Sequence record: LC788710.1
From: Escherichia coli phage Wa28
Strand: one strand, 5' to 3'
DNA length: 64,000 nucleotides
Shown: piece after piece, positions 5,315 through 64,000 of the stretch
Layout of the letters: every line of letters starts with the position of its first letter
Numbering within the stretch: the stretch's first letter is position 1
The notes under the pieces: generated by a model
Told to the model about the DNA's origin: nothing
Databases searched by the model: none
Seen by the model: the letters and a program-made list of their open reading frames with translations, nothing else
Translations under genes and position numbers: made by a program

Positions 5315-8164
5315 TTAAATAGATGCCCAATCCACAGATTGCTCGCCATTATCACCTTCTGCTCTTATACGGAAGCGTAACTTCCTATTAATACCCAGAG
5401 CATCCTCATTATGAAGAGCATAGTCTGCCTTATTGTATATCAGTAGATAATCGTAGACATACTGATCTTCAATTCGTACACTTCTTAATAAACGATCTAG
5501 GTTATCGTAGATTTCGAGAGTGTAGAAGATTCCATCAATGATATCTTCTTCTGGAATTCTATCCCAGGCCAATTTAACGTCTGGTCCTACAAACTCCGAA
5601 GCATCTCCTGAAGCTGTATTAGTAACCCTGAAGTTACTAACGACGCTTAAGTTTTTAGCAGAGTTAAGTTCTACCGATAGTGTTACAGGAGAACTTCGTC
5701 TACCATTAATATCTACAGCTCTAATCTCAAAGACTGCTAAACCAGCAGGTTCTCCAATAATTTCTTGGATCATTCGTAGATTTGGATTAGTTTCTAGTTG
5801 CTGTACTATATAAGGATCAGCATGCCCAGAGTGAACGATGGAGTAATAAACAACGTTATTAGTTAAGCTAGGAAGCCAAGATAGCTCACCATTCTTACCA
5901 ATAGATCCTACTTGTCCACCCGGTGTTGGTGTATACATAAAGTCTCTAGGAGGCAGTACGTTATTACTAACATCAGGGATATCGTTACCACTATTATCAA
6001 CCTGCTCGGAGTTAATGAATACATCCTCACCGTACTCTTGCAGTGTAATATTAATCTTACCTTCTCTAGAGTTTTCAACTTCATCAACTAGGAAGTATTT
6101 CTTGTCCCAACCATAACGACCGTATGTAAAAGCAATCGGATCGTTAGGCTCAATGCCTATGAAATGATATGGTAATGAGAATGTGAGAGTTCGTGAGTAA
6201 CGAGACTTTTTCAGTTCTCTATCTGCAAAGCTACGCGCAGTATAGTAGTTAGTGATGTTTGCAAAAGAAAGCTGAAGTTTTTTATCTAACCCTTTATCTT
6301 GCTCCTTAAATATAGAGTTAAAGAATGTAATGGAGTTAGTTTTCCAGCTTAATGCGGGATCTAATATAGAGGCCTGTACTGAGTTAAACTTATTTCTACC
6401 AGTAGTATCTGATAGCTCCAGATCACCATAGGTATCTAAGAAGTCAATCTCCAGTGGAGTATTCGAGAACTTCTCAACAGTTATTCTATACTGACCAGAT
6501 AAGTTGTTGATAGCACCTCCATAAGACTCTATTAATCCCTGCACGTTTTTAAATACTGACTCAGAGGTATCGAGAATAGTATTCATTTGAACTATTTGTC
6601 TATTCTCTCCTACAGCATCAGTCCATCCAACATATCTCCAGTAGGGTTGCCAAGAAACCTGATAGGATTCATCAATGATATCCAGGATAGCTGCTTCTTG
6701 AATAAGTTGCTGGAGAGGGAACTGATCAATAGTAATATTAGCACCGTAGCGGTCAGAGGTTAGGTAGTCCAGAGTTTGCCAGATACCATTTAAGCTAGTC
6801 TTATCAGCAGTTACTCTACCATCTGAATGATAGATCTTAATCTTCTTACCTTGAACTTCAGCGCTAACTTCTGGAATTTCTGTTCTGTTTTCATTAATAG
6901 TAAAGCGAACAATAGCATAAGCAGTATCTAACAGTTTATAACGAGAGTCCCAGTATTCCGGTCCATTCTCATTCATGTTCTGTAGATAGAAACCTTTCTC
7001 TTTTGCAATGTTAACTAGAACATCAGCAGCAGATTGATCAGCCTTACCATGATAAGTCCAGATACGGATATCGCCATTACCATCATTATACTTATATTCC
7101 TGTCCATGAACAGAAGGTTCAGAGCTTGGTTGACCAGAAGCAATACGTTTCATGGTATCACCAGCTACTTTCTTAGTACCAAAGCAAGTACGAGACTTAC
7201 TATCATTAGGATCAATACAGATCATTGGTACATCACCAAAGTAAAAATCTAGGAACCCATCAATCTCACCTTCACAGAAAGCGTATACTATATATACGAT
7301 ATTAGGATTATGCAGTTCAGTATCTGCAAATACTGGGATTCCAGGAATTTTCTGAACTCCATATACTACTGGCAGGAATTTAGCAGCTAAGTTAAAATCA
7401 AGATCTACTTCCTTAGTTACAGTCTCATAATATTTCTTTAGACTATAGCTTCTAGAAAGACCAAATAATTTTTTCTTAGATTGTAACTTATAACGTTCTT
7501 CCTGAACCTGATACTTAGCAAGAATAGAGATACTCTTGTTAGCGTGGAAGAACCCGTAGTCTTCTTGATATTCAGGTCGCTTAGCACCATTAGACGGAAC
7601 TAATTGGCCGGCAACAATCTCAAGCCCTCTATGGTCAGCATCATCTGTGAAACGTCCATTTACTCTATCAAAGTCATAGAATTGGTTTGAACAGTTCCAT
7701 GTAATAACGGATGTACTAACTCCAGAAGTACCAATGTTATCCTTAATACCACCACCAGTAATTTTACCACGGAAGTAAAGTAAAGGACCATTAGTGTCTG
7801 GATCTACAGGAAGAATATTACCTTCTTCATCAATAACCGCTTGATGGATTGAAATAGATCTATCTAGGAAGGATACACCATTTTGGACTAGTTTTAATAC
7901 TTCATCCTCAGCAGTACCTGTGATAGTAAAAGAAAGGCTACCAATGGAAAGTTTTCTATTTTGTTTATGTGTTGTTATAGACTTAACTTTACCGGATGTG
8001 TAAAGAATACCATTATAAATTACATCCCTAAAATAGTCTGTAAGATAAATGTACGCAGAACTTGATCCGGTAGAGCTTGGCAATTCAAGAGTAATAAGGC
8101 ATGCAGTTTTTATTTTATTATTGGTTCTTAAATACTCTCTTGCACTGTCAAGAATTTTCTTCAT
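5315..8164 (-). CDS. baseplate hub protein (pb3-like)
   Basis: 949 aa ORF immediately after distal tail protein; size and position as recalled for T5 pb3. Confidence 0.6.
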   Translation of the reverse strand: MKKILDSAREYLRTNNKIKTACLITLELPSSTGSSSAYIYLTDYFRDVIYNGILYTSGKVKSITTHKQNRKLSIGSLSFTITGTAEDEVLKLVQNGVSFLDRSISIHQAVIDEEGNILPVDPDTNGPLLYFRGKITGGGIKDNIGTSGVSTSVITWNCSNQFYDFDRVNGRFTDDADHRGLEIVAGQLVPSNGAKRPEYQEDYGFFHANKSISILAKYQVQEERYKLQSKKKLFGLSRSYSLKKYYETVTKEVDLDFNLAAKFLPVVYGVQKIPGIPVFADTELHNPNIVYIVYAFCEGEIDGFLDFYFGDVPMICIDPNDSKSRTCFGTKKVAGDTMKRIASGQPSSEPSVHGQEYKYNDGNGDIRIWTYHGKADQSAADVLVNIAKEKGFYLQNMNENGPEYWDSRYKLLDTAYAIVRFTINENRTEIPEVSAEVQGKKIKIYHSDGRVTADKTSLNGIWQTLDYLTSDRYGANITIDQFPLQQLIQEAAILDIIDESYQVSWQPYWRYVGWTDAVGENRQIVQMNTILDTSESVFKNVQGLIESYGGAINNLSGQYRITVEKFSNTPLEIDFLDTYGDLELSDTTGRNKFNSVQASILDPALSWKTNSITFFNSIFKEQDKGLDKKLQLSFANITNYYTARSFADRELKKSRYSRTLTFSLPYHFIGIEPNDPIAFTYGRYGWDKKYFLVDEVENSREGKINITLQEYGEDVFINSEQVDNSGNDIPDVSNNVLPPRDFMYTPTPGGQVGSIGKNGELSWLPSLTNNVVYYSIVHSGHADPYIVQQLETNPNLRMIQEIIGEPAGLAVFEIRAVDINGRRSSPVTLSVELNSAKNLSVVSNFRVTNTASGDASEFVGPDVKLAWDRIPEEDIIDGIFYTLEIYDNLDRLLRSVRIEDQYVYDYLLIYNKADYALHNEDALGINRKLRFRIRAEGDNGEQSVDWASI

Positions 8165-57896: not shown

Positions 57897-57986
57897 TGGC
57901 AGAAGATAATGGAGTCGAACCATCACCGTATCACTACAGCGGGCCGGTTTTCAAGACCGGTTACGTACCACTACGTCCTATCTTCT
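57897..57986 (-). tRNA. tRNA-Ser (anticodon TGA), class II
   Basis: 90 nt; anticodon arm CCGGT-CTTGAAA-ACCGG; long variable arm. Confidence 0.6.
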
Positions 57987-58213
57987 AGTATTTGTTCTAC
58001 TTCTTTTCGAAGATCTTCTGGATTATCATGATAGGTTGTTTGCCATACATAAATAACTCCAGTATCACATGCTTTATCAAATATTTCTCGCTCAGGAAGT
58101 TTCATGCCCATTGCGTACTTGATATGAAACTCTAAAGCTTGCTTACTAGGGAATGTATGACGCAAGAAAAACTTATCATTAACTAAATCCAACATCATAA
58201 TCTTGACTTTCAT
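57971..58213 (-). CDS. hypothetical protein
   Basis: 80 aa; 3-prime end overlaps tRNA-Ser. Confidence 0.35.
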   Translation of the reverse strand: MKVKIMMLDLVNDKFFLRHTFPSKQALEFHIKYAMGMKLPEREIFDKACDTGVIYVWQTTYHDNPEDLRKEVEQILEDRT

Positions 58214-59726: not shown

Positions 59727-59804
59727 TTGGTGGATTGCCTGGGATTCGAACCCAGAACTGACGGATTAAAGGTCCGCTACTCTTATCCGGTTGAGCTAGC
59801 AATC
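59727..59804 (-). tRNA. tRNA-Lys (anticodon TTT), C33 variant
   Basis: cloverleaf with perfect acceptor; anticodon loop CCTTTAA. Confidence 0.5.
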
Positions 59805-60269
59805 CAATTTTTCTACTAATAATTTAAAAGCATCTAGTACAGGTACTTCAAACCATTCCCCGGATACTCTGTAGTCTTTGAGAAGATTATGTAACTCTTT
59901 CTCCGTACGTCTTTTATCTGACGAAAATCTGAAATGGTGTAGCTTGTAGTCTCTATTAGGTGAATAGGTTTGATAACTTGCTAACCTCTCATTTACATCT
60001 ATAGTCATACCTATTTTATACATGCCTGGCCATGCGGGATTACCGATTACATATACAAAACCTTCCGTTATAGGTATTTTATGTTCTCTTTTGTATTTTA
60101 AGAGATTTAAAGCTGCCATTCGATAACAGAATTTAAATTCTGAAGTTTTTAACTTACCCTCTTTACCAGAAATTTCATTATATTTGCTCATATAAGCTCT
60201 TATAAGCTTATCATCTATAATAAAATTATCAGGAAGGTTTAAGGCAGCTAAAACTTTATTAATTAGCAT
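59796..60269 (-). CDS. T5orf172-domain (GIY-YIG-like) putative homing endonuclease
   Basis: 157 aa; VYVIGNPAWPGMYKIGMT...YQTYSP motif; paralog of 63369-63860. Confidence 0.55.
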   Translation of the reverse strand: MLINKVLAALNLPDNFIIDDKLIRAYMSKYNEISGKEGKLKTSEFKFCYRMAALNLLKYKREHKIPITEGFVYVIGNPAWPGMYKIGMTIDVNERLASYQTYSPNRDYKLHHFRFSSDKRRTEKELHNLLKDYRVSGEWFEVPVLDAFKLLVEKLDC

Positions 60270-60444
60270 AAACTTCCTTAATAGAGTAGACTTTCAAGTA
60301 AGGATGATTAATACCAAATTCCGCCATTACTTCATTTTCATCTTTACCATAATGGGCTAGTGGATACTTCTTACGATCTTTACTAGAACGTAAATCACTT
60401 ACTTTTAAACGAAATAATTTCATTTCGAAATCCTTCTATTAAAT

Positions 60445-60522
60445 TGGAAGCGGGTGCAGGAATCGAACCTACCTCTTTCTAGCTTATGAGACTAGCGATC
60501 TCTACCAGAGATCTAACCCGCA
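60445..60522 (-). tRNA. tRNA with CAT anticodon (Met/fMet/Ile2), 1:72 mismatch
   Basis: cloverleaf; anticodon loop CTCATAA; unpaired first acceptor pair. Confidence 0.5.
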
Positions 60523-60528
60523 ATTGTT

Positions 60529-60606
60529 TGGTCTCCGTGGGAGGATTTGAACCCCCGACCCTATCGCCCCAAACGAAACGCTCTAGCCAAACTGAGCTAC
60601 ACGGAG
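60529..60606 (-). tRNA. tRNA-Pro (anticodon TGG)
   Basis: cloverleaf; perfect acceptor; anticodon loop TTTGGGG (G37). Confidence 0.6.
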
Positions 60607-60638
60607 AATATTCTTTGTTAACTCACTTTATAAAATAT

Positions 60639-60667
60639 ATTATACAGAGAATTAAGCTAAATAGCAA
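60639..60667 (-). promoter_or_regulatory. T5-type sigma70 promoter (TTGCTA-17-TATAAT) upstream of tRNA-Pro
   Basis: conserved architecture. Confidence 0.6.
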
Positions 60668-60921
60668 CTACATTTTTTAATAAATTTACTTATTGCGTAG
60701 GCCACCTGGAGGGTTCAAGCCCCACGGCTGACAAAGAAGTTTGCGAGACTTCTCTTAAACGCCAGAATAGACCCGCCGATCTATCGGAACCTACTCAATA
60801 AGTAAACTTTCGTTTACCTACACCTACCTGGTCGGGAGGATTTTCAGCGACTAGAACCGGCCGGAAACTCATCGCCTTGTTTATCTAGGAGTCCGTTCTC
60901 TAGGAAGCAGAAACCTAAATT

Positions 60922-60995
60922 TGGTGCGGTCGGAGGGAATCGAACCCTCAACTTCTGGTTGGCAACCAAAAATTATACCTTTTAACTACGAACGC
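60922..60995 (-). tRNA. tRNA-Gly (anticodon GCC)
   Basis: cloverleaf; anticodon loop TTGCCAA. Confidence 0.55.
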
Positions 60996-61005
60996 ATAAT
61001 AAGTC

Positions 61006-61126
61006 AATCTAGGCAGGACTTGAACCTGCTATCACTTGTGCGGATTTACGAGAACCATTCTTTCACTCGAATCGAACGAGCTTCTACCCTCGGCAAGCTG
61101 GTGTCCCCTCTCCACCACGCTAGAAT
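61006..61126 (-). other. tRNA-like element (~121 nt) with perfect T-arm but no standard cloverleaf
   Basis: T-arm GCAGG-TTCAAGT-CCTGC at 61013-61029; acceptor-like pairing only to 61120-61126. Confidence 0.25.
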
Positions 61127-61208
61127 GATAATTAGTGCCTGCTCCTTTGAATCAAGAAGTCCACCCCGGACTTTGGGTCTTTGCAGTACATCACGCTGCT
61201 CTGATGTT

Positions 61209-61285
61209 TGGTACACCCACTAGGACTTGAACCTAGAACCTACCGCTTAAGAGGCGGTAGCTCTAACCAATTGAGCTATGGATGT
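61209..61285 (-). tRNA. tRNA-Lys (anticodon CTT)
   Basis: cloverleaf; D-arm GCTCAATTGGTTAGAGC; anticodon arm ACCGC-CTCTTAA-GCGGT. Confidence 0.65.
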
Positions 61286-61291
61286 ATAATT

Positions 61292-61366
61292 TGGCGGTAC
61301 TAAGGGTAATCGAAACCCTACCTCTCCCGTGACAGGGGAGTATCCTAACCGTTAGACTATAGTACC
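61292..61366 (-). tRNA. tRNA-Asp (anticodon GTC)
   Basis: cloverleaf; anticodon arm CTCCC-CTGTCAC-GGGAG; perfect acceptor. Confidence 0.65.
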
Positions 61367-61938
61367 TTTAACTTTTTAAGTTCTTTAGGATTGCCTCCTA
61401 AAGAAGTGTATCTTTTACGCAACCCATTATCTGAATAACTTAACTTTCTCCCTGCACCTGACCAGCCTAGCTCTCTTACTGTAACCTCGATTATTTCTTT
61501 AGTTATAGAGATATCTTTTGGTTTATGTGAAGAGCACTCCTGACATTTTTCAGCTTTTAAAGAAATAGCTTTACCACAATCCTTACAACAATTATCATGG
61601 TTTAGTTTACTAAATCCTTTATCTTTTAAAGTCTTTTCTAGATGCTGCTCTTTTGTGAGCACTTGTAAGTTATTAAGACCCCAATAAGTAATGTCTGTGT
61701 TAATATGGTCAACTTCTAGTTCAGAGTCTAGACTTGGTAATTTCTTAAATGCACATGCTAAAATCCTATGTACACCGGTATTTCTCTGTTGACCATTTTT
61801 ATGGAGACGTATAGATAAGTATCCGTAATTACTGGTTATTTGGGTTAGTATTTTGTTTGATTTGATACTAAATACTAACCCATCCAAACTTACTAAGTAC
61901 TCCTCAAACCCTGGAATGGGTAAGGATATTCCGTGCAT
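61357..61938 (-). CDS. HNH homing endonuclease
   Basis: 193 aa; GVHRILA...EVDHIN...NNLQVLTKEQH HNH motif plus C-terminal Cys cluster. Confidence 0.6.
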   Translation of the reverse strand: MHGISLPIPGFEEYLVSLDGLVFSIKSNKILTQITSNYGYLSIRLHKNGQQRNTGVHRILACAFKKLPSLDSELEVDHINTDITYWGLNNLQVLTKEQHLEKTLKDKGFSKLNHDNCCKDCGKAISLKAEKCQECSSHKPKDISITKEIIEVTVRELGWSGAGRKLSYSDNGLRKRYTSLGGNPKELKKLKVL

Positions 61939-61941
61939 AAT

Positions 61942-62127
61942 TTACTCAGTTTTGAGTTTTTCGATAGCTTCCTCAACCTCTTTTAGAGCTTCACGACGCT
62001 CTACTTGACCTTGAAGTTCTTCAAGAAGTTCAGCTTTCAGAGCCTTAATAATATTACCACGAACCTTAATATTATTAATCAGATTATCACGATCAGCTTC
62101 TAGTCGAGCAATTGCACGAGTTGTCAT
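61942..62127 (-). CDS. small coiled-coil protein
   Basis: 61 aa. Confidence 0.3.
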   Translation of the reverse strand: MTTRAIARLEADRDNLINNIKVRGNIIKALKAELLEELQGQVERREALKEVEEAIEKLKTE

Positions 62128-62230
62128 ATCTATTTCCTCAGTTGTTAATGAAAAATGGTATCTGTGACTGAATTCGATATCAGCAATGATAGCTGGTTGG
62201 CTACCGGTTTACTTAACTCTACACAGAATA

Positions 62231-62313
62231 TGGCGGGCCGTGTAGGATTCGAACCTACGTTGTCTTTCGACATGGATTAACAGTCCACCGCCAAACCGCT
62301 TGGCTAACGACCC
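62231..62313 (-). tRNA. tRNA-Asn (anticodon GTT) with unusually long 13-nt variable arm
   Basis: 83 nt; anticodon arm GGACTGTTAATCC; extra arm GTC-gaaa-GAC. Confidence 0.55.
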
Positions 62314-62320
62314 TAAAATT

Positions 62321-62396
62321 TGGACGACCGCATGAGATTCGAACTCACATAAGGAGGTTTTGCAGGCCTCCGCCTAAGCCATTCAGCCAACGGTCG
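62321..62396 (-). tRNA. tRNA-Cys (anticodon GCA)
   Basis: cloverleaf; anticodon loop CTGCAAA. Confidence 0.6.
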
Positions 62397-62574
62397 ATTT
62401 ATCTTGCTTTTCGAGATTAGTAAACTCTAGATCTTTAGAATGTCCTATAGATCTAGCATAATAGCCATCTCCAGCATCGTAGCCTGATTTACCGCACTCA
62501 CACATCTTAAACTCTCTATAATGAGTGAAAATATGTTCAGAACCACAACACTTAAATTTAACTAACATTTTCAT
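62383..62574 (-). CDS. small zinc-ribbon protein
   Basis: 63 aa; CCGSEH...CECGKS. Confidence 0.3.
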   Translation of the reverse strand: MKMLVKFKCCGSEHIFTHYREFKMCECGKSGYDAGDGYYARSIGHSKDLEFTNLEKQDKSTVG

Positions 62575-62813
62575 TTAACACGCTCCGGTAAATCTTCGAG
62601 TTTATATTGAGTAGCCACATTAGCAGCATCTAGTAACAAACCCATATGTTTAAGAATCCTAGTGATAGCCTCGCCTTCTGCTTCTTCTACAAAAGTGCGT
62701 AGTTGAATGAAGTCAATACCCCCATCCATACCAGAGAAAATGTTTAGTAAGCGAAGCATTACCAGCTTACGTTCTTTCAATTCTTGTTCTGTCATGTTGC
62801 TTCTCCAGTTCAA
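62571..62813 (-). CDS. hypothetical protein
   Basis: 80 aa; promoter upstream. Confidence 0.35.
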   Translation of the reverse strand: MNWRSNMTEQELKERKLVMLRLLNIFSGMDGGIDFIQLRTFVEEAEGEAITRILKHMGLLLDAANVATQYKLEDLPERVK

Positions 62814-62824
62814 TTTATGTAATA

Positions 62825-62853
62825 ATTATACAGAACTTTAAGCGGTTAAGCAA
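62825..62853 (-). promoter_or_regulatory. T5-type sigma70 promoter (TTGCTT-17-TATAAT)
   Basis: conserved architecture. Confidence 0.6.
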
Positions 62854-63124
62854 CTACATTTTTTAAGAATTTGATGCCTTTCTTTTTCTTCTTATATTTC
62901 CACGTTAACGGGTTCTGTCGATTATGAACGCTTGAGATCTTTGTCTCGTCAAAGTTCTTCAAAACCATGTAATCACAGGCCAACTGTTCTAGTGGGATGT
63001 GATCTCCATCAAAAGCATAAACATAAGGCTGTTGACTAGCACGATAATGATAGACTTTGTTAATTCTGCGTTTCAGTGACTTATCCGCACAGTAAATAAA
63101 GAAGTTTTCAGGATGCATCAGCAT
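62846..63124 (-). CDS. hypothetical protein
   Basis: 92 aa. Confidence 0.35.
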   Translation of the reverse strand: MLMHPENFFIYCADKSLKRRINKVYHYRASQQPYVYAFDGDHIPLEQLACDYMVLKNFDETKISSVHNRQNPLTWKYKKKKKGIKFLKNVVA

Positions 63125-63135
63125 CTCCTTAAAAT

Positions 63136-63210
63136 TGGTGCACCCTGTTCGTATCGAACGAACCTCTCAAGCTCTTCAGGCAAGCGCTAATCCATCTCAG
63201 CTAAAGGTGC
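63136..63210 (-). tRNA. tRNA-Phe (anticodon GAA), weak anticodon stem
   Basis: cloverleaf; anticodon loop CTGAAGA; two U-U mismatches in anticodon stem. Confidence 0.45.
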
Positions 63211-63216
63211 AAATAT

Positions 63217-63293
63217 TGGCAAACCTACTAGGACTCGAACCTAGACCGTACGGTTTTGGAGACCGACATGCTGTCCAGTAACACTCTAGGAAT
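63217..63293 (-). tRNA. tRNA-Trp (anticodon CCA), mismatched acceptor
   Basis: anticodon loop CTCCAAA and T-loop TTCGAGT as in enterobacterial tRNA-Trp; two U-U mismatches in acceptor. Confidence 0.45.
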
Positions 63294-63301
63294 GCAGAAA
63301 T

Positions 63302-63378
63302 TGGCGTCCTGTGCGGGGATCGAACCCGCAAACCCCACCTTGAAAGGGTGGTGACTTTACCAGTTTGTCTAACAGGAC
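63302..63378 (-). tRNA. tRNA-Glu (anticodon TTC)
   Basis: perfect acceptor; anticodon arm CCACC-CTTTCAA-GGTGG. Confidence 0.65.
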
Positions 63379-63860
63379 TTAAATTGTTTATTGGATAGAT
63401 TGTTAAACTCGGAAAGTATGTCGTCTACACTTCTGTCTAACACTACCCATTCATTAAGCCGTTCAGGAAAGCTATTATGAAGCATTTTCTCCGCTTCTCT
63501 AGCATTAAACCAAAATGACCAATGTATTAACTTATAATCACGTAAGGGAGAATAAGTTTGGTAATTTCCTAATCTTGTTTTAGGATCAGAAGACATACCA
63601 ATTTTTACATAGTTATCCCACGCTGGGTTAGTTATTGCATAAATAAAACCACAGCTGGATTTTTCTCCAATACTTTTGTTATACTTGATAAAAGATAGGG
63701 CAGATAACTTCAAGCTATATCGACGATTACTATCGCGACCAAAGTTAGCTGTACCAAATGTGAGGCTTTCTAATATTAGATCTTTGTTTATATCGGCGGG
63801 TGAACCCAACTGTATAATACCTCTATTTGCAGCTTCTTGAATTATCCGATCAATATACAT
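63369..63860 (-). CDS. T5orf172-domain (GIY-YIG-like) putative homing endonuclease
   Basis: 163 aa; FIYAITNPAWDNYVKIGMS...YQTYSP motif; paralog of 59796-60269. Confidence 0.55.
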   Translation of the reverse strand: MYIDRIIQEAANRGIIQLGSPADINKDLILESLTFGTANFGRDSNRRYSLKLSALSFIKYNKSIGEKSSCGFIYAITNPAWDNYVKIGMSSDPKTRLGNYQTYSPLRDYKLIHWSFWFNAREAEKMLHNSFPERLNEWVVLDRSVDDILSEFNNLSNKQFKSC

Positions 63861-63877
63861 ATCCTTTACCTTTAATT

Positions 63878-63965
63878 TGGTGGGCGTTAATGGAGTCGAA
63901 CCACTCGAGTCGCAATGACCAGGGATTTACAATCCCCTCCGCTACCACTTACGGAATAAACGCCC
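63878..63965 (-). tRNA. tRNA-Tyr (anticodon GTA), class II
   Basis: 88 nt; perfect acceptor; anticodon loop TTGTAAA. Confidence 0.6.
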
Positions 63966-64000
63966 ATATTTAGAAGTATTCAAATACTTGTTTAAACACT

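What the first reader, a model, noticed from the sequence alone, without database searches (positions are those of the whole stretch)
59796..63860. Homing endonuclease genes interleaved with tRNA genes: two T5orf172-type paralogs and one HNH
Two paralogous ORFs (59796-60269 and 63369-63860) share the ITNPAW...KIGM...YQTYSP core typical of the T5orf172 (GIY-YIG-like) domain, and an HNH endonuclease (61357-61938) sits between tRNA-Asp and tRNA-Asn. Their 3-prime ends abut or overlap tRNA genes, the arrangement expected for selfish endonucleases. They may drive local mosaicism of the tRNA repertoire.
Basis: partly seen in the sequence, partly recalled or inferred. Interest (0 to 1): 0.45.

Follow-up and report, generated by a model that had tools for sequence, protein, structure and literature searches.

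The report
Homing endonuclease genes among phage tRNAs
Three small selfish nuclease genes sit between the tRNA genes of a T5-like phage, and comparison with relatives shows them being gained, decaying and being lost while carrying neighbouring tRNA gene versions with them; this kind of element is already known, so the finding is solid but ordinary.

Summary
The window is an Epseptimavirus (T5-like) phage, 99.9% identical to E. coli phage Shin27 here.

ORF-A (59796-60269) and ORF-C (63369-63860) are T5orf172/GIY-YIG-type paralogs. ORF 61357-61938 is an I-HmuI-like NUMOD4+HNH endonuclease. Each reads 10 nt into the next tRNA and stops at TAG, formed by tRNA positions 8-10.

Across 31 related loci plus the window, and the 50,697-record phage collection, tRNA order is conserved while these genes occupy discrete slots patchily.
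- HNH: 57 records, 49 of them >=99% identical, inside an island of 99-100% identity.
- ORF-C: absent from near-identical Shin27 and bux. In the window it lies in an 840-nt tract 100% identical to more distant BSP22A.
- HNH and ORF-A each travel with a private, divergent allele of the downstream tRNA (Asp, Lys-UUU).
- Decay forms exist: a deletion scar, nonsense and frameshift variants, and dead chimeric tRNA-Asp genes.

No cleavage or homing was tested.

The selfish homing-endonuclease reading, including its effect on tRNA mosaicism, is supported. But T5 tRNA-region endonucleases (F-TflI/II/IV), T5orf172 homing genes in T5-like phages and T4 SegB are published, and orthologs are already annotated 'putative homing endonuclease'. 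Interest is modest.

The parts
59796..60269 (-). ORF-A, 157 aa: N-terminal three-helix domain plus C-terminal T5orf172 (GIY-YIG-type) nuclease domain. Candidate free-standing homing endonuclease in the tRNA-Met | tRNA-Lys(UUU) slot.
59728..59805 (-). tRNA-Lys(UUU), the allele linked to ORF-A. It supplies ORF-A's last 7 coding nt and its TAG stop (tRNA positions 8-10). Its anticodon loop is CCUUUAA, with C at position 33.
   Evidence: The allele is found in 11 of 11 ORF-A+ loci and 0 of 20 ORF-A- loci. In the whole phage collection it occurs in 86 records, against 85 with near-full-length ORF-A. Cloverleaf.
60259..60423 (-). Small conserved ORF (phrog_6221). Its last codons mark the upstream boundary of the ORF-A + tRNA-Lys block.
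   Evidence: Junction sequences: endonuclease-less genomes end ...gaagtatacatgtatTAAat and then the tRNA, whereas carriers switch at ...ggaagttt|ATG.
61357..61938 (-). 193-aa I-HmuI-like HNH endonuclease: NUMOD4 domain, DH...NN...QH motif, CxxC...CxxC zinc ribbon and a C-terminal helix-turn-helix-like tail. It sits in the tRNA-Asn | tRNA-Asp slot and is 38-43% identical to the two I-HmuI-like T5 HNH enzymes.
   Evidence: Found in 57 phage records, 49 of them >=99% identical. Sits in an island of 99-100% identity in Ace and IrmaTschudi.
61292..61366 (-). tRNA-Asp(GUC), the allele linked to the HNH gene. It is 75 nt, 68% identical to the resident 77-nt allele, and shares only the 17-nt anticodon arm with it. 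It supplies the HNH ORF's TAG stop and has a U53-A61 pair in the T-stem.
   Evidence: (6 of 6 HNH+ loci, 0 of 26 HNH- loci). Collection-wide it occurs in 65 records against 57 with HNH. Exceptions examined.
61942..62127 (-). DUF7337 gene. Its stop codon (TAA, then 'att', then ATG) marks the upstream boundary of the HNH + tRNA-Asp block, and the HNH start is only 3 nt downstream.
63369..63860 (-). ORF-C, 163 aa, a T5orf172 (GIY-YIG-type) paralog of ORF-A. It is a clean 492-nt insertion into the 7-nt AATTTAA spacer between tRNA-Tyr and tRNA-Glu.
   Evidence: Absent in Shin27 and bux (99.6-99.9% backbone identity), 100% identical in BSP22A.
63302..63378 (-). tRNA-Glu(UUC). It supplies ORF-C's TAG stop. 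It carries three donor-type (BSP22A-type) substitutions at 63333, 63336 and 63350.
63878..63965 (-). tRNA-Tyr(GUA) 'type I' allele, which came in together with ORF-C. The surrounding 63870-64000 stretch is only 75.6% identical to the corresponding Shin27 sequence, which carries a 'type II' tRNA-Tyr.
63161..64000 (.). Tract 100% identical to BSP22A in a backbone otherwise identical to Shin27. The crossover lies within 63161-63332. The far end lies beyond the window edge.
   Evidence: the last difference from BSP22A is at 63160 and the first difference from Shin27 is at 63333.

Best explanation
These are three free-standing homing endonuclease genes: two GIY-YIG-type (T5orf172) and one I-HmuI-like HNH. 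They are lodged in the tRNA gene cluster of a T5-like phage.

Inferred mechanism:
1. In a cell co-infected by a relative that lacks the gene, the enzyme cuts the rival genome at or near the corresponding tRNA slot. The HNH enzyme may nick rather than cut, as I-HmuI does.
2. Recombinational repair from the carrier genome copies in the endonuclease gene together with adjacent DNA.
3. Because each ORF physically overlaps the next tRNA, and because the neighbouring tRNA alleles are too divergent to recombine within, the unit that moves is 'endonuclease gene plus tRNA allele'.

The three genes appear to be at different stages. ORF-C is a recent arrival in this genome. The HNH gene has spread recently through many Epseptimaviruses. 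ORF-A looks like an old resident that is decaying in some lineages.

The genes are probably co-transcribed with the tRNAs. RNase P cleavage at the tRNA 5' end would remove the stop codon and keep expression low, as proposed for T4 SegB and the T5 F-Tfl enzymes. This step is inferred, not shown.
For: - **Domains and fold:**
- **Conserved tRNA order with patchy occupancy:** T5orf172 genes occupy 5 slots and HNH genes 4 slots in 31 related loci plus the window.
- **Discordant identity:** the HNH gene is >=99% identical in 49 of 57 records and sits in an island of 99-100% identity spanning roughly 61000-62350, while other parts of the same genomes are 74-97% identical.
- **Recombinant footprint in the window:** Shin27-identical up to 63332 and BSP22A-identical over 63161-64000, including ORF-C and a swapped tRNA-Tyr.
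- **Clean junctions:** a 492-nt insertion in a 7-nt spacer, and blocks bounded by a stop codon on one side and a tRNA 3' end on the other.
- **Linkage to private tRNA alleles:**
- **All stages of the homing-gene life cycle are seen:**
  - NR01 keeps the last 11 nt of the HNH ORF as a deletion scar.
  - KKP_3822 keeps only the two ends of the HNH ORF.
  - Ace has a stop at HNH codon 3.
  - bux and Eps7 have indels that shorten ORF-A to 131 aa.
  - Kenya-K38 and smaug carry chimeric tRNA-Asp genes that ARAGORN no longer recognises.

- **Precedents:** T4 SegB (PMC2330249), T5 F-TflI/II/IV (cited in PMC2330249 and PMC10644984), T5orf172 homing genes enriched in T5-like phages (PMC10448857), and T5orf172 nuclease activity dependent on the conserved Glu (PMC10448857, PMC8263062).
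Against: - No cleavage site, nuclease activity or biased inheritance has been shown for any of these three proteins. The target sites are unknown.
- ORF-A is about 94% identical among carriers, like its surroundings, so nothing points to recent movement.
- The second Tyr of the 'YIG' motif is Val in ORF-C.
- HNH_3 is below Pfam's cut-off.
- Deeply divergent tRNA alleles also occur at tRNAs with no adjacent endonuclease gene.
- 4 of 10 endonuclease/slot combinations share their downstream tRNA allele with empty sites.
- The tRNA-Asp allele also exists without the HNH gene in some Tequintaviruses.
- The stop codon inside the tRNA is not specific to endonuclease genes: 2 of 5 other ORFs directly upstream of a tRNA do the same.
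- The loci compared are not phylogenetically independent, and some are duplicates of the same phage.
Confidence: 0.75

Rival explanations
1. Passive cargo. The genes are accessory ORFs shuffled by ordinary homologous recombination between the conserved tRNA flanks of co-infecting T5-like phages. Their nuclease activity, if any, does not drive their own spread.
For: Allele mosaicism is pervasive in this cluster even where no endonuclease gene is adjacent. Small non-nuclease ORFs also vary between relatives. Linkage to the downstream tRNA follows automatically from physical overlap and from the lack of homology inside divergent alleles.
Against: The variable ORFs that recur in many different slots are specifically nuclease families: 5 slots for T5orf172 and 4 for HNH. 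The HNH gene sits in an island of near-identity in otherwise 74-97% identical genomes and is >=99% identical in 49 records. Relatives of both families are experimentally shown nucleases or homing enzymes (PMC2330249, PMC8263062).
Confidence: 0.12
2. Domesticated nucleases with a phage-beneficial role. They could exclude competing phages by cutting a rival's tRNA cluster (marker exclusion), or attack satellites or host DNA, and would be kept by selection rather than by selfish drive.
For: T5orf172 nucleases have been co-opted this way in ICP1 (Odn, PMC8263062), and a related DNA-binding domain was co-opted in PLE (CapR, PMC8096241). T4 Seg enzymes cause marker exclusion (PMC2330249). ORF-A looks long-resident.
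Against: All three genes are dispensable. They are absent from very close relatives and occur as truncated or nonsense variants. That pattern fits the gain-decay-loss cycle of selfish elements better than maintained function.
Confidence: 0.08
3. The T5orf172 ORFs are DNA-binding regulators rather than nucleases.
For: The S114 GenBank record annotates the orthologs with 'DNA-binding domain (IPR018306)'. The proteins are small (157-163 aa). The second motif Tyr is not conserved.
Against: The catalytic-type Tyr, Arg and Glu are invariant across 17 diverse homologs. The fold matches GIY-YIG nucleases. Nuclease activity dependent on the conserved Glu has been shown for a T5orf172 protein (PMC10448857, PMC8263062).
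Confidence: 0.05

Closest known systems
T4 SegB (GIY-YIG free-standing homing endonuclease in the T4 tRNA gene cluster; PMC2330249)
   Same: It is a nuclease gene embedded among phage tRNA genes and is absent from close relatives. It drives inheritance of itself and the surrounding tRNA genes. Its ORF end is tied to 5' processing of the next tRNA, with cleavage between the last sense codon and the stop codon, which was proposed to limit expression.
   Different: It belongs to a different phage family. SegB is 221 aa, as implied by its 666-bp ORF (PMC2330249), against 157-163 aa here. In the T5orf172 proteins the nuclease domain is C-terminal, behind a roughly 65-aa helical domain. SegB's targets (tRNA TpsiC-arm sequence) are known, whereas the targets here are not. 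Sequence homology to SegB was not tested.
Phage T5 F-TflI, F-TflII, F-TflIV (HNH site-specific endonucleases of the T5 tRNA region; Akulenko et al. 2004, cited in PMC2330249 and PMC10644984)
   Same: Same phage group, same tRNA-cluster setting and same overall architecture. The window's HNH is 43% and 38% identical over nearly its full length to the two I-HmuI-like T5 enzymes, and shares their conserved C-terminal tail.
   Different: It is a separate lineage in a different slot: Asn|Asp, against His|Gln(CUG), Leu|Ser(GGA) and the position after Ser(GCU) in T5. T5 itself has no ortholog. Which T5 ORF carries which F-Tfl name rests on GenBank notes only, and the original paper could not be read.
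T5 ORF065 (172 aa), probably the 'T5 ORF172' that names Pfam PF10544, and the T5orf172 homing genes of ICP1 and T5-like phages (PMC10448857)
   Same: Same family. ORF-A is 47% and ORF-C 40% identical to T5 ORF065. All three sit immediately 5' of a tRNA and run into it.
   Different: The slots differ: Met|Lys and Tyr|Glu here, Cys|Asn in T5. The N-terminal roughly 40 residues of ORF-A and ORF-C do not align with each other. There are no Zn-finger (CapR, DUF723 or DUF4397) DNA-binding modules, which 87% of the T5orf172 homing genes surveyed in PMC10448857 carry. The N-terminus here is a cysteine-free three-helix bundle. That ORF065 is the namesake is inferred from its length only.
I-HmuI (SPO1 intron-encoded HNH nicking homing endonuclease, PDB 1U3E)
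   Same: Best solved-structure match of the window's HNH protein, over the NUMOD4 sheet and HNH core (residues 8-102, E = 1e-4).
   Different: I-HmuI is intron-encoded, whereas this gene is free-standing. The window protein has an added CxxC...CxxC zinc ribbon and a different C-terminal DNA-binding tail.

Membership tests
T5orf172 / GIY-YIG superfamily (ORF-A, ORF-C) | Match to Pfam PF10544 (T5orf172) above the gathering score | tested here: met
   56.3 and 34.7 bits against a cut-off of 20. MUG113 also scores 68.2 and 34.6 against 22.3.
T5orf172 / GIY-YIG superfamily (ORF-A, ORF-C) | GIY-YIG alpha/beta fold | tested here: met
T5orf172 / GIY-YIG superfamily (ORF-A, ORF-C) | Catalytic residues: first-motif Tyr, conserved Arg, catalytic Glu | tested here: met
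   Y73, R95 and E123 are invariant in 17 sequences that include both window paralogs. Their assignment to catalytic roles is by analogy with PMC8263062 and PMC10448857.
T5orf172 / GIY-YIG superfamily (ORF-A, ORF-C) | Second-motif Tyr ('YIG') | tested here: inconclusive
   Tyr in ORF-A (YKIG) but Val in ORF-C (VKIG). The column is variable across the family, while K85 and G87 are invariant.
HNH (His-Me finger), I-HmuI-like HNH_3 group | Match to Pfam HNH_3 above the gathering score | tested here: not met
   18.5 bits against a cut-off of 24.8. Membership rests on the other rows.
HNH (His-Me finger), I-HmuI-like HNH_3 group | NUMOD4 module plus similarity to a solved member across the beta-beta-alpha-metal core | tested here: met
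   NUMOD4 scores 24.4 against 23.4. phrog_59 'HNH endonuclease' matches at 8.5e-22. I-HmuI 1U3E matches at E = 1e-4 over residues 8-102, with the DH motif aligned. The sequence shows EVDH...NNL...EQH directly.
Homing endonuclease gene (functional class) | Precise presence/absence polymorphism at a fixed site among close relatives | tested here: met
   All three genes.
Homing endonuclease gene (functional class) | Evidence of lateral spread: the gene and its immediate flanks are more similar between genomes than the backbone, with co-conversion tracts | tested here: met
   Met for the HNH gene and ORF-C. Not met for ORF-A, which is about 94% identical, like its surroundings.
Homing endonuclease gene (functional class) | Site-specific cleavage of the allele that lacks the gene | not testable with these tools
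   Needs purified protein and DNA substrates.
Homing endonuclease gene (functional class) | Nuclease-dependent super-Mendelian inheritance in mixed infection | not testable with these tools
   Needs phage crosses.
T5 F-Tfl endonucleases | Orthology to F-TflI, F-TflII or F-TflIV (same slot, high identity) | tested here: not met
   33-43% identity, a different slot, and no DNA-level match in T5. It is a homolog, not an ortholog. One GenBank record labels the ortholog of the window's HNH 'F-TflII', which this comparison does not support.

The most novel reading that the evidence does not exclude
The endonuclease genes and their downstream tRNA genes may be true two-part cassettes. Under this reading the nuclease targets the resident allele of a tRNA gene and brings along a functional, cleavage-resistant replacement.

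Features consistent with this: the HNH-linked tRNA-Asp lacks the canonical GGTTCRANYCC T-arm and has a U53-A61 pair. The ORF-A-linked tRNA-Lys(UUU) has C33.

Such cassettes would be a main engine of tRNA-allele turnover in T5-like phages. They could also spread tRNA variants that escape host anticodon nucleases. As a side effect they would occasionally destroy a tRNA gene, as in the chimeric tRNA-Asp of smaug and Kenya-K38.
Probability: 0.3. Interest if true: 0.55.

Novelty: new member of a known kind. Interest (0 to 1): 0.3.

Why it matters
For annotation, these three ORFs can be named with confidence as putative homing endonucleases rather than 'hypothetical protein', which is how Shin27, bux and BSP22A list them.

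Biologically, the locus gives an unusually complete natural series for the life cycle of a phage homing gene: fresh insertion, sweep, nonsense and frameshift decay, a deletion scar, and collateral damage to a tRNA gene.

It also yields a concrete, testable idea: in T5-like phages the mobile unit is 'nuclease plus tRNA allele'. That would link selfish DNA to the make-up of phage tRNA sets, which are currently discussed mainly in terms of codon usage and escape from host tRNA-cleaving defences (PMC10264068).

None of this overturns current understanding. T4 SegB already established the principle.

Tried and rejected
1. **Divergent patch in DUF7337.** A patch at about 62013-62087, upstream of the HNH gene, looked like a possible target or immunity site. 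Rejected: HNH-less S114 and L018 carry the same version as the window.
2. **'Perfect' HNH/tRNA-Asp linkage.** The 32-locus sample gave 6/6 vs 0/26. This was softened by the whole collection: 65 records carry the allele against 57 with the HNH gene. Kenya-K18 and NR01 have the allele without the gene.
3. **Stop codon inside the tRNA as an endonuclease-specific device.** Rejected: 2 of 5 other ORFs directly upstream of a tRNA also overlap it.
4. **Endonucleases as the sole cause of tRNA allele dimorphism.** Rejected: dimorphism also occurs at Gln(UUG), Pro, Ser(GCU), Thr and Ile, with no adjacent endonuclease gene of these two families.
5. **Own promoters for the endonuclease genes.** The scan found 12 promoter-like sites against 13.0 expected by chance, and none was specifically placed.
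7. **Original F-Tfl paper.** PubMed 15456135 is not held, so the known cleavage sites of the T5 enzymes could not be compared.
8. **C33 in phage tRNA-Lys.** A search of the phage-tRNA anticodon-loop paper (PMC10264068) found no mention of U33 or position 33.

Full report
**What is there**

The window belongs to a T5-like phage of the genus Epseptimavirus. Its last 5 kb is 99.9% identical to E. coli phage Shin27 and 99.6% identical to Salmonella phage bux over 88% of its length. A run of 25 tRNA genes lies on the minus strand between 55882 and 63965.

ORF-A (59796-60269, 157 aa) and ORF-C (63369-63860, 163 aa) both pass Pfam's curated thresholds for T5orf172 and for the related MUG113 family. 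Both fall in phrog_5032. They share 44% identity over 88 residues, E = 6e-25.

The third ORF (61357-61938, 193 aa) has a NUMOD4 module just above threshold and an HNH_3 match below threshold. It matches PHROG 59 'HNH endonuclease' at 8.5e-22. It aligns to the solved HNH homing endonuclease I-HmuI over residues 8-102, E = 1e-4. No other member of either family occurs in the 64-kb window.

**Nuclease character of the T5orf172 pair**

An alignment of both paralogs with 15 database homologs of 31-86% identity has these invariant residues (ORF-A numbering): G70, Y73, N77, P78, A79, K85, G87, R95, Y99, Q100, T101, P104, E123, E138, W139.
- This fits the GIY...(Y)IG...R...E pattern of GIY-YIG nucleases, plus the family's own 'EW' motif.
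- The second motif Tyr is Val in ORF-C.

An AlphaFold model of ORF-A is confident, with pLDDT 87.6 and pTM 0.77.
- Foldseek and a plain sequence search of the PDB were uninformative.

Published work places T5orf172 in the GIY-YIG superfamily and shows Glu-dependent nuclease activity for one member (PMC8263062, PMC10448857).

ORF-A is 47% and ORF-C 40% identical to T5 ORF065. ORF065 is 172 aa long and is probably the 'T5 ORF172' that gave the domain its name. That last point is inferred from its length.

**Geometry**

Each of the three ORFs reads through the first seven bases of the next tRNA and stops at TAG, formed by tRNA positions 8-10. The sequences are GGATTGC-TAG (Lys), GGTACTA-TAG (Asp) and GTCCTGT-TAG (Glu).

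Across relatives, 10 of 11 independent endonuclease/slot combinations end inside or exactly at the 5' end of the downstream tRNA, with overlaps of 0-24 nt. This is not exclusive to endonuclease genes: 2 of 5 other window ORFs that sit directly upstream of a tRNA also overlap it.

The T4 SegB paper describes the same arrangement. It proposes that tRNA 5' processing separates the ORF from its stop codon and so limits expression, and it says the same was proposed for the T5 F-Tfl enzymes (PMC2330249). No promoter specific to these genes was detected.

**Comparative evidence for mobility**

I compared the window with 8 GenBank loci. I added 23 IMG/VR loci retrieved through a neighbouring conserved gene, so these were not selected for endonuclease content. 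Some loci are duplicates of the same phage, and none are phylogenetically independent.

The order of tRNA genes is conserved, but endonuclease genes occupy discrete slots patchily.
- T5orf172 genes occupy five slots: Tyr|Glu (three different lineages), Cys|Asn, Met|Lys(UUU), Gly(GCC)|Pro and Ala|Leu(UAG).
- HNH genes occupy four: Asn|Asp, Leu|Ser(GGA), His|Gln(CUG) and after Ser(GCU).

About 584 records in the 50,697-record phage collection match the 5-kb region in some part.
- The window's HNH gene occurs in 57 records, 49 of them at >=99% identity.
- ORF-C occurs at >=95% identity in 41 records.
- ORF-A covers >=80% of its length in 85 records, 64 of them at >=90% identity and most of those at 90-95%.

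A 150-nt identity profile shows an island of 99-100% identity spanning roughly 61000-62350, around the HNH gene, in Ace and IrmaTschudi. Other parts of the compared region in the same genomes are 74-97% identical. BSP22A shows a 100% island around ORF-C. ORF-A shows no island.

**A recombination footprint inside the window**

From 62300 to 63332 the window has no difference from Shin27. From 63161 to 64000 it has no difference from BSP22A, which elsewhere differs at about 4% of positions. The crossover therefore lies in 63161-63332.

The imported tract contains three substitutions in tRNA-Glu, the whole of ORF-C, and a different tRNA-Tyr allele. The 63870-64000 stretch that holds this allele is only 75.6% identical to the corresponding Shin27 sequence.

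In Shin27 and many other genomes, tRNA-Tyr and tRNA-Glu are separated by just AATTTAA. ORF-C is a clean 492-nt insertion into that spacer. The far end of the tract lies beyond the window edge.

**Endonuclease-tRNA blocks**

The HNH gene and ORF-A are each bounded upstream by the end of a conserved small gene and downstream by the 3' CCA of the next tRNA. That tRNA is a different allele from the one found in genomes lacking the endonuclease.
- All 6 HNH-carrying loci have a 75-nt tRNA-Asp that shares only its 17-nt anticodon arm with the 77-nt allele of all 26 non-carriers.
- All 11 ORF-A carriers have a tRNA-Lys(UUU) allele found in none of 20 non-carriers.
- T5 ORF172 behaves the same way with tRNA-Asn: 9 of 9 carriers, and no non-carrier has the allele.

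Overall, 6 of 10 endonuclease/slot combinations have a private downstream allele, 65-79% identical to the nearest other allele. The other 4, including ORF-C with tRNA-Glu, share the allele with empty sites.

Counts in the whole collection agree. The tRNA-Lys allele occurs in 86 records against 85 with ORF-A. The tRNA-Asp allele occurs in 65 records against 57 with the HNH gene.

**Decay and collateral damage**

I examined the excess tRNA-Asp records.
- EH7 has an intact but unannotated HNH gene.
- Kenya-K18 has the linked allele with no HNH gene.
- NR01 also lacks the gene, but its spacer 'aaaaagttaaa' is exactly the last 11 nt of the HNH ORF, which reads as a deletion scar.
- KKP_3822 keeps only the first 8 nt and about the last 10 nt of the HNH ORF, around about 230 nt of G-rich sequence. 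An assembly artefact is possible there.
- Kenya-K38 and smaug carry reciprocal chimeras of the two tRNA-Asp alleles, joined in the shared anticodon arm.

Both parental tRNA-Asp alleles fold as cloverleaves, but ARAGORN finds no tRNA in either chimera. Neither record annotates a tRNA-Asp in the fetched stretch.

Other decay forms also appear. Ace has a stop at HNH codon 3 (ATG CAC TGA). In bux and Eps7, indels shorten ORF-A to 131 aa.

**Limits**

A control shows that deep allelic dimorphism (<85% identity) also exists at tRNAs with no adjacent endonuclease gene of these two families, such as Gln(UUG), Pro, Ser(GCU), Thr and Ile. Mosaicism is thus a general property of this cluster, and these genes explain only part of it.

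Linkage of an endonuclease gene to its downstream tRNA is partly automatic. The ORF overlaps the tRNA, and the alleles are too different to recombine within. Activity, target sites and biased inheritance are all untested.

**Comparison with what is known**

[quoted passage not shown] The BF23 genome paper attributes most T5/BF23/Epseptimavirus differences to such homing genes. T5orf172 homing genes are reported as abundant in T5-like phages. T4 SegB is a homing endonuclease in a tRNA cluster that spreads itself and the surrounding tRNA genes. Orthologs of ORF-A, ORF-C and the HNH gene are already annotated 'putative homing endonuclease' in the BASEL phages IrmaTschudi, TrudiRoth and GreteKellenberger.

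The window's HNH gene is a distinct lineage: 33-43% identical to the T5 enzymes and in a different slot. ORF-A and ORF-C are distinct paralogs of T5 ORF172. They also lack the Zn-finger DNA-binding modules reported for most T5orf172 homing genes (PMC10448857).

I file the finding as new members of a known kind.

**Verdict**

Confidence that these are, or recently were, mobile homing endonuclease genes is about 0.75. Interest is 0.3.

The most novel reading not excluded is that nuclease and tRNA form a functional cassette, in which the resident tRNA allele is the target and the linked allele is a resistant replacement. I give that a probability of about 0.3.

Noticed in passing
window 59728-59805 (tRNA-Lys UUU): The ORF-A-linked tRNA-Lys(UUU) has the anticodon loop CCUUUAA, with C at position 33 where U is nearly universal. 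The T5 and BSP22A alleles have the canonical CUUUUAA. tRNA-Lys(UUU) is the target of the PrrC anticodon nuclease (PMC10264068), so this variant might matter for defence evasion.
   Followed up: partly
window 61292-61366 (tRNA-Asp): The HNH-linked tRNA-Asp has a T-stem ending in U53-A61 instead of the near-universal G53-C61. It lacks the canonical GGTTCRANYCC T-arm sequence, which is the motif T4 SegB recognises (PMC2330249). The alternative allele is canonical.
   Followed up: partly
window 62013-62087 (inside the DUF7337 gene 61942-62127): A roughly 60-nt patch in this small coiled-coil gene has two very different versions among otherwise similar genomes (11-15 of 25 bases identical). The versions are not linked to HNH presence.
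   Followed up: yes
That would be an amber-suppressor-type tRNA. All three window endonuclease ORFs end in TAG.
   Followed up: no
L004 (T5, AY587007.1 27000-42000): The tRNA coordinates annotated in this GenBank record are shifted by 68 nt relative to ARAGORN's calls, for example tRNA-Asp annotated at 6432-6508 against 6500-6576. This makes CDS/tRNA overlaps in the record look larger than they are.
   Followed up: partly
window 57971-58213 and 62383-62574: Two small non-nuclease ORFs also run into the next tRNA: 16 nt into tRNA-Ser(UGA) and 14 nt into tRNA-Cys. Sharing of ORF ends with tRNA 5' ends is thus a general feature of the cluster.
   Followed up: partly
L001-L031, many tRNA types: Deeply divergent alleles (<85% identity, as low as 51-60%) occur at the same positional slot for many tRNAs with no adjacent endonuclease gene of the two families, for example Gln(UUG), Pro, Ser(GCU), Thr and Leu(UAG). 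Their origin is unexplained. Possibilities include past homing events or other mobile genes.
   Followed up: partly
L005 (BSP22A) 1662-2122; also L017, L018, L026: Genomes lacking ORF-A carry a different insertion of two small ORFs (144 and 318 nt) between tRNA-Lys(UUU) and tRNA-Val. It was not characterised.
   Followed up: no
MG065692.1 'Campylobacter phage C13' 11981-12055: This record, labelled as a Campylobacter phage, holds a 98.7% identical copy of the HNH-linked tRNA-Asp of Salmonella/E. coli T5-like phages. Mislabelling or contamination is possible.
   Followed up: no
L036 (KKP_3822) about 1377-1716: The interior of the HNH gene is replaced by about 230 nt of G-rich, low-complexity sequence between its retained first 8 nt and about its last 10 nt. 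This could be real decay or an assembly artefact.
   Followed up: partly
L032 (EH7, OR413347.1) 1376-1950: An intact HNH gene, 97.6% identical to the window's, is present but not annotated in the GenBank record. Several other records also list 'none' under this gene.
   Followed up: yes
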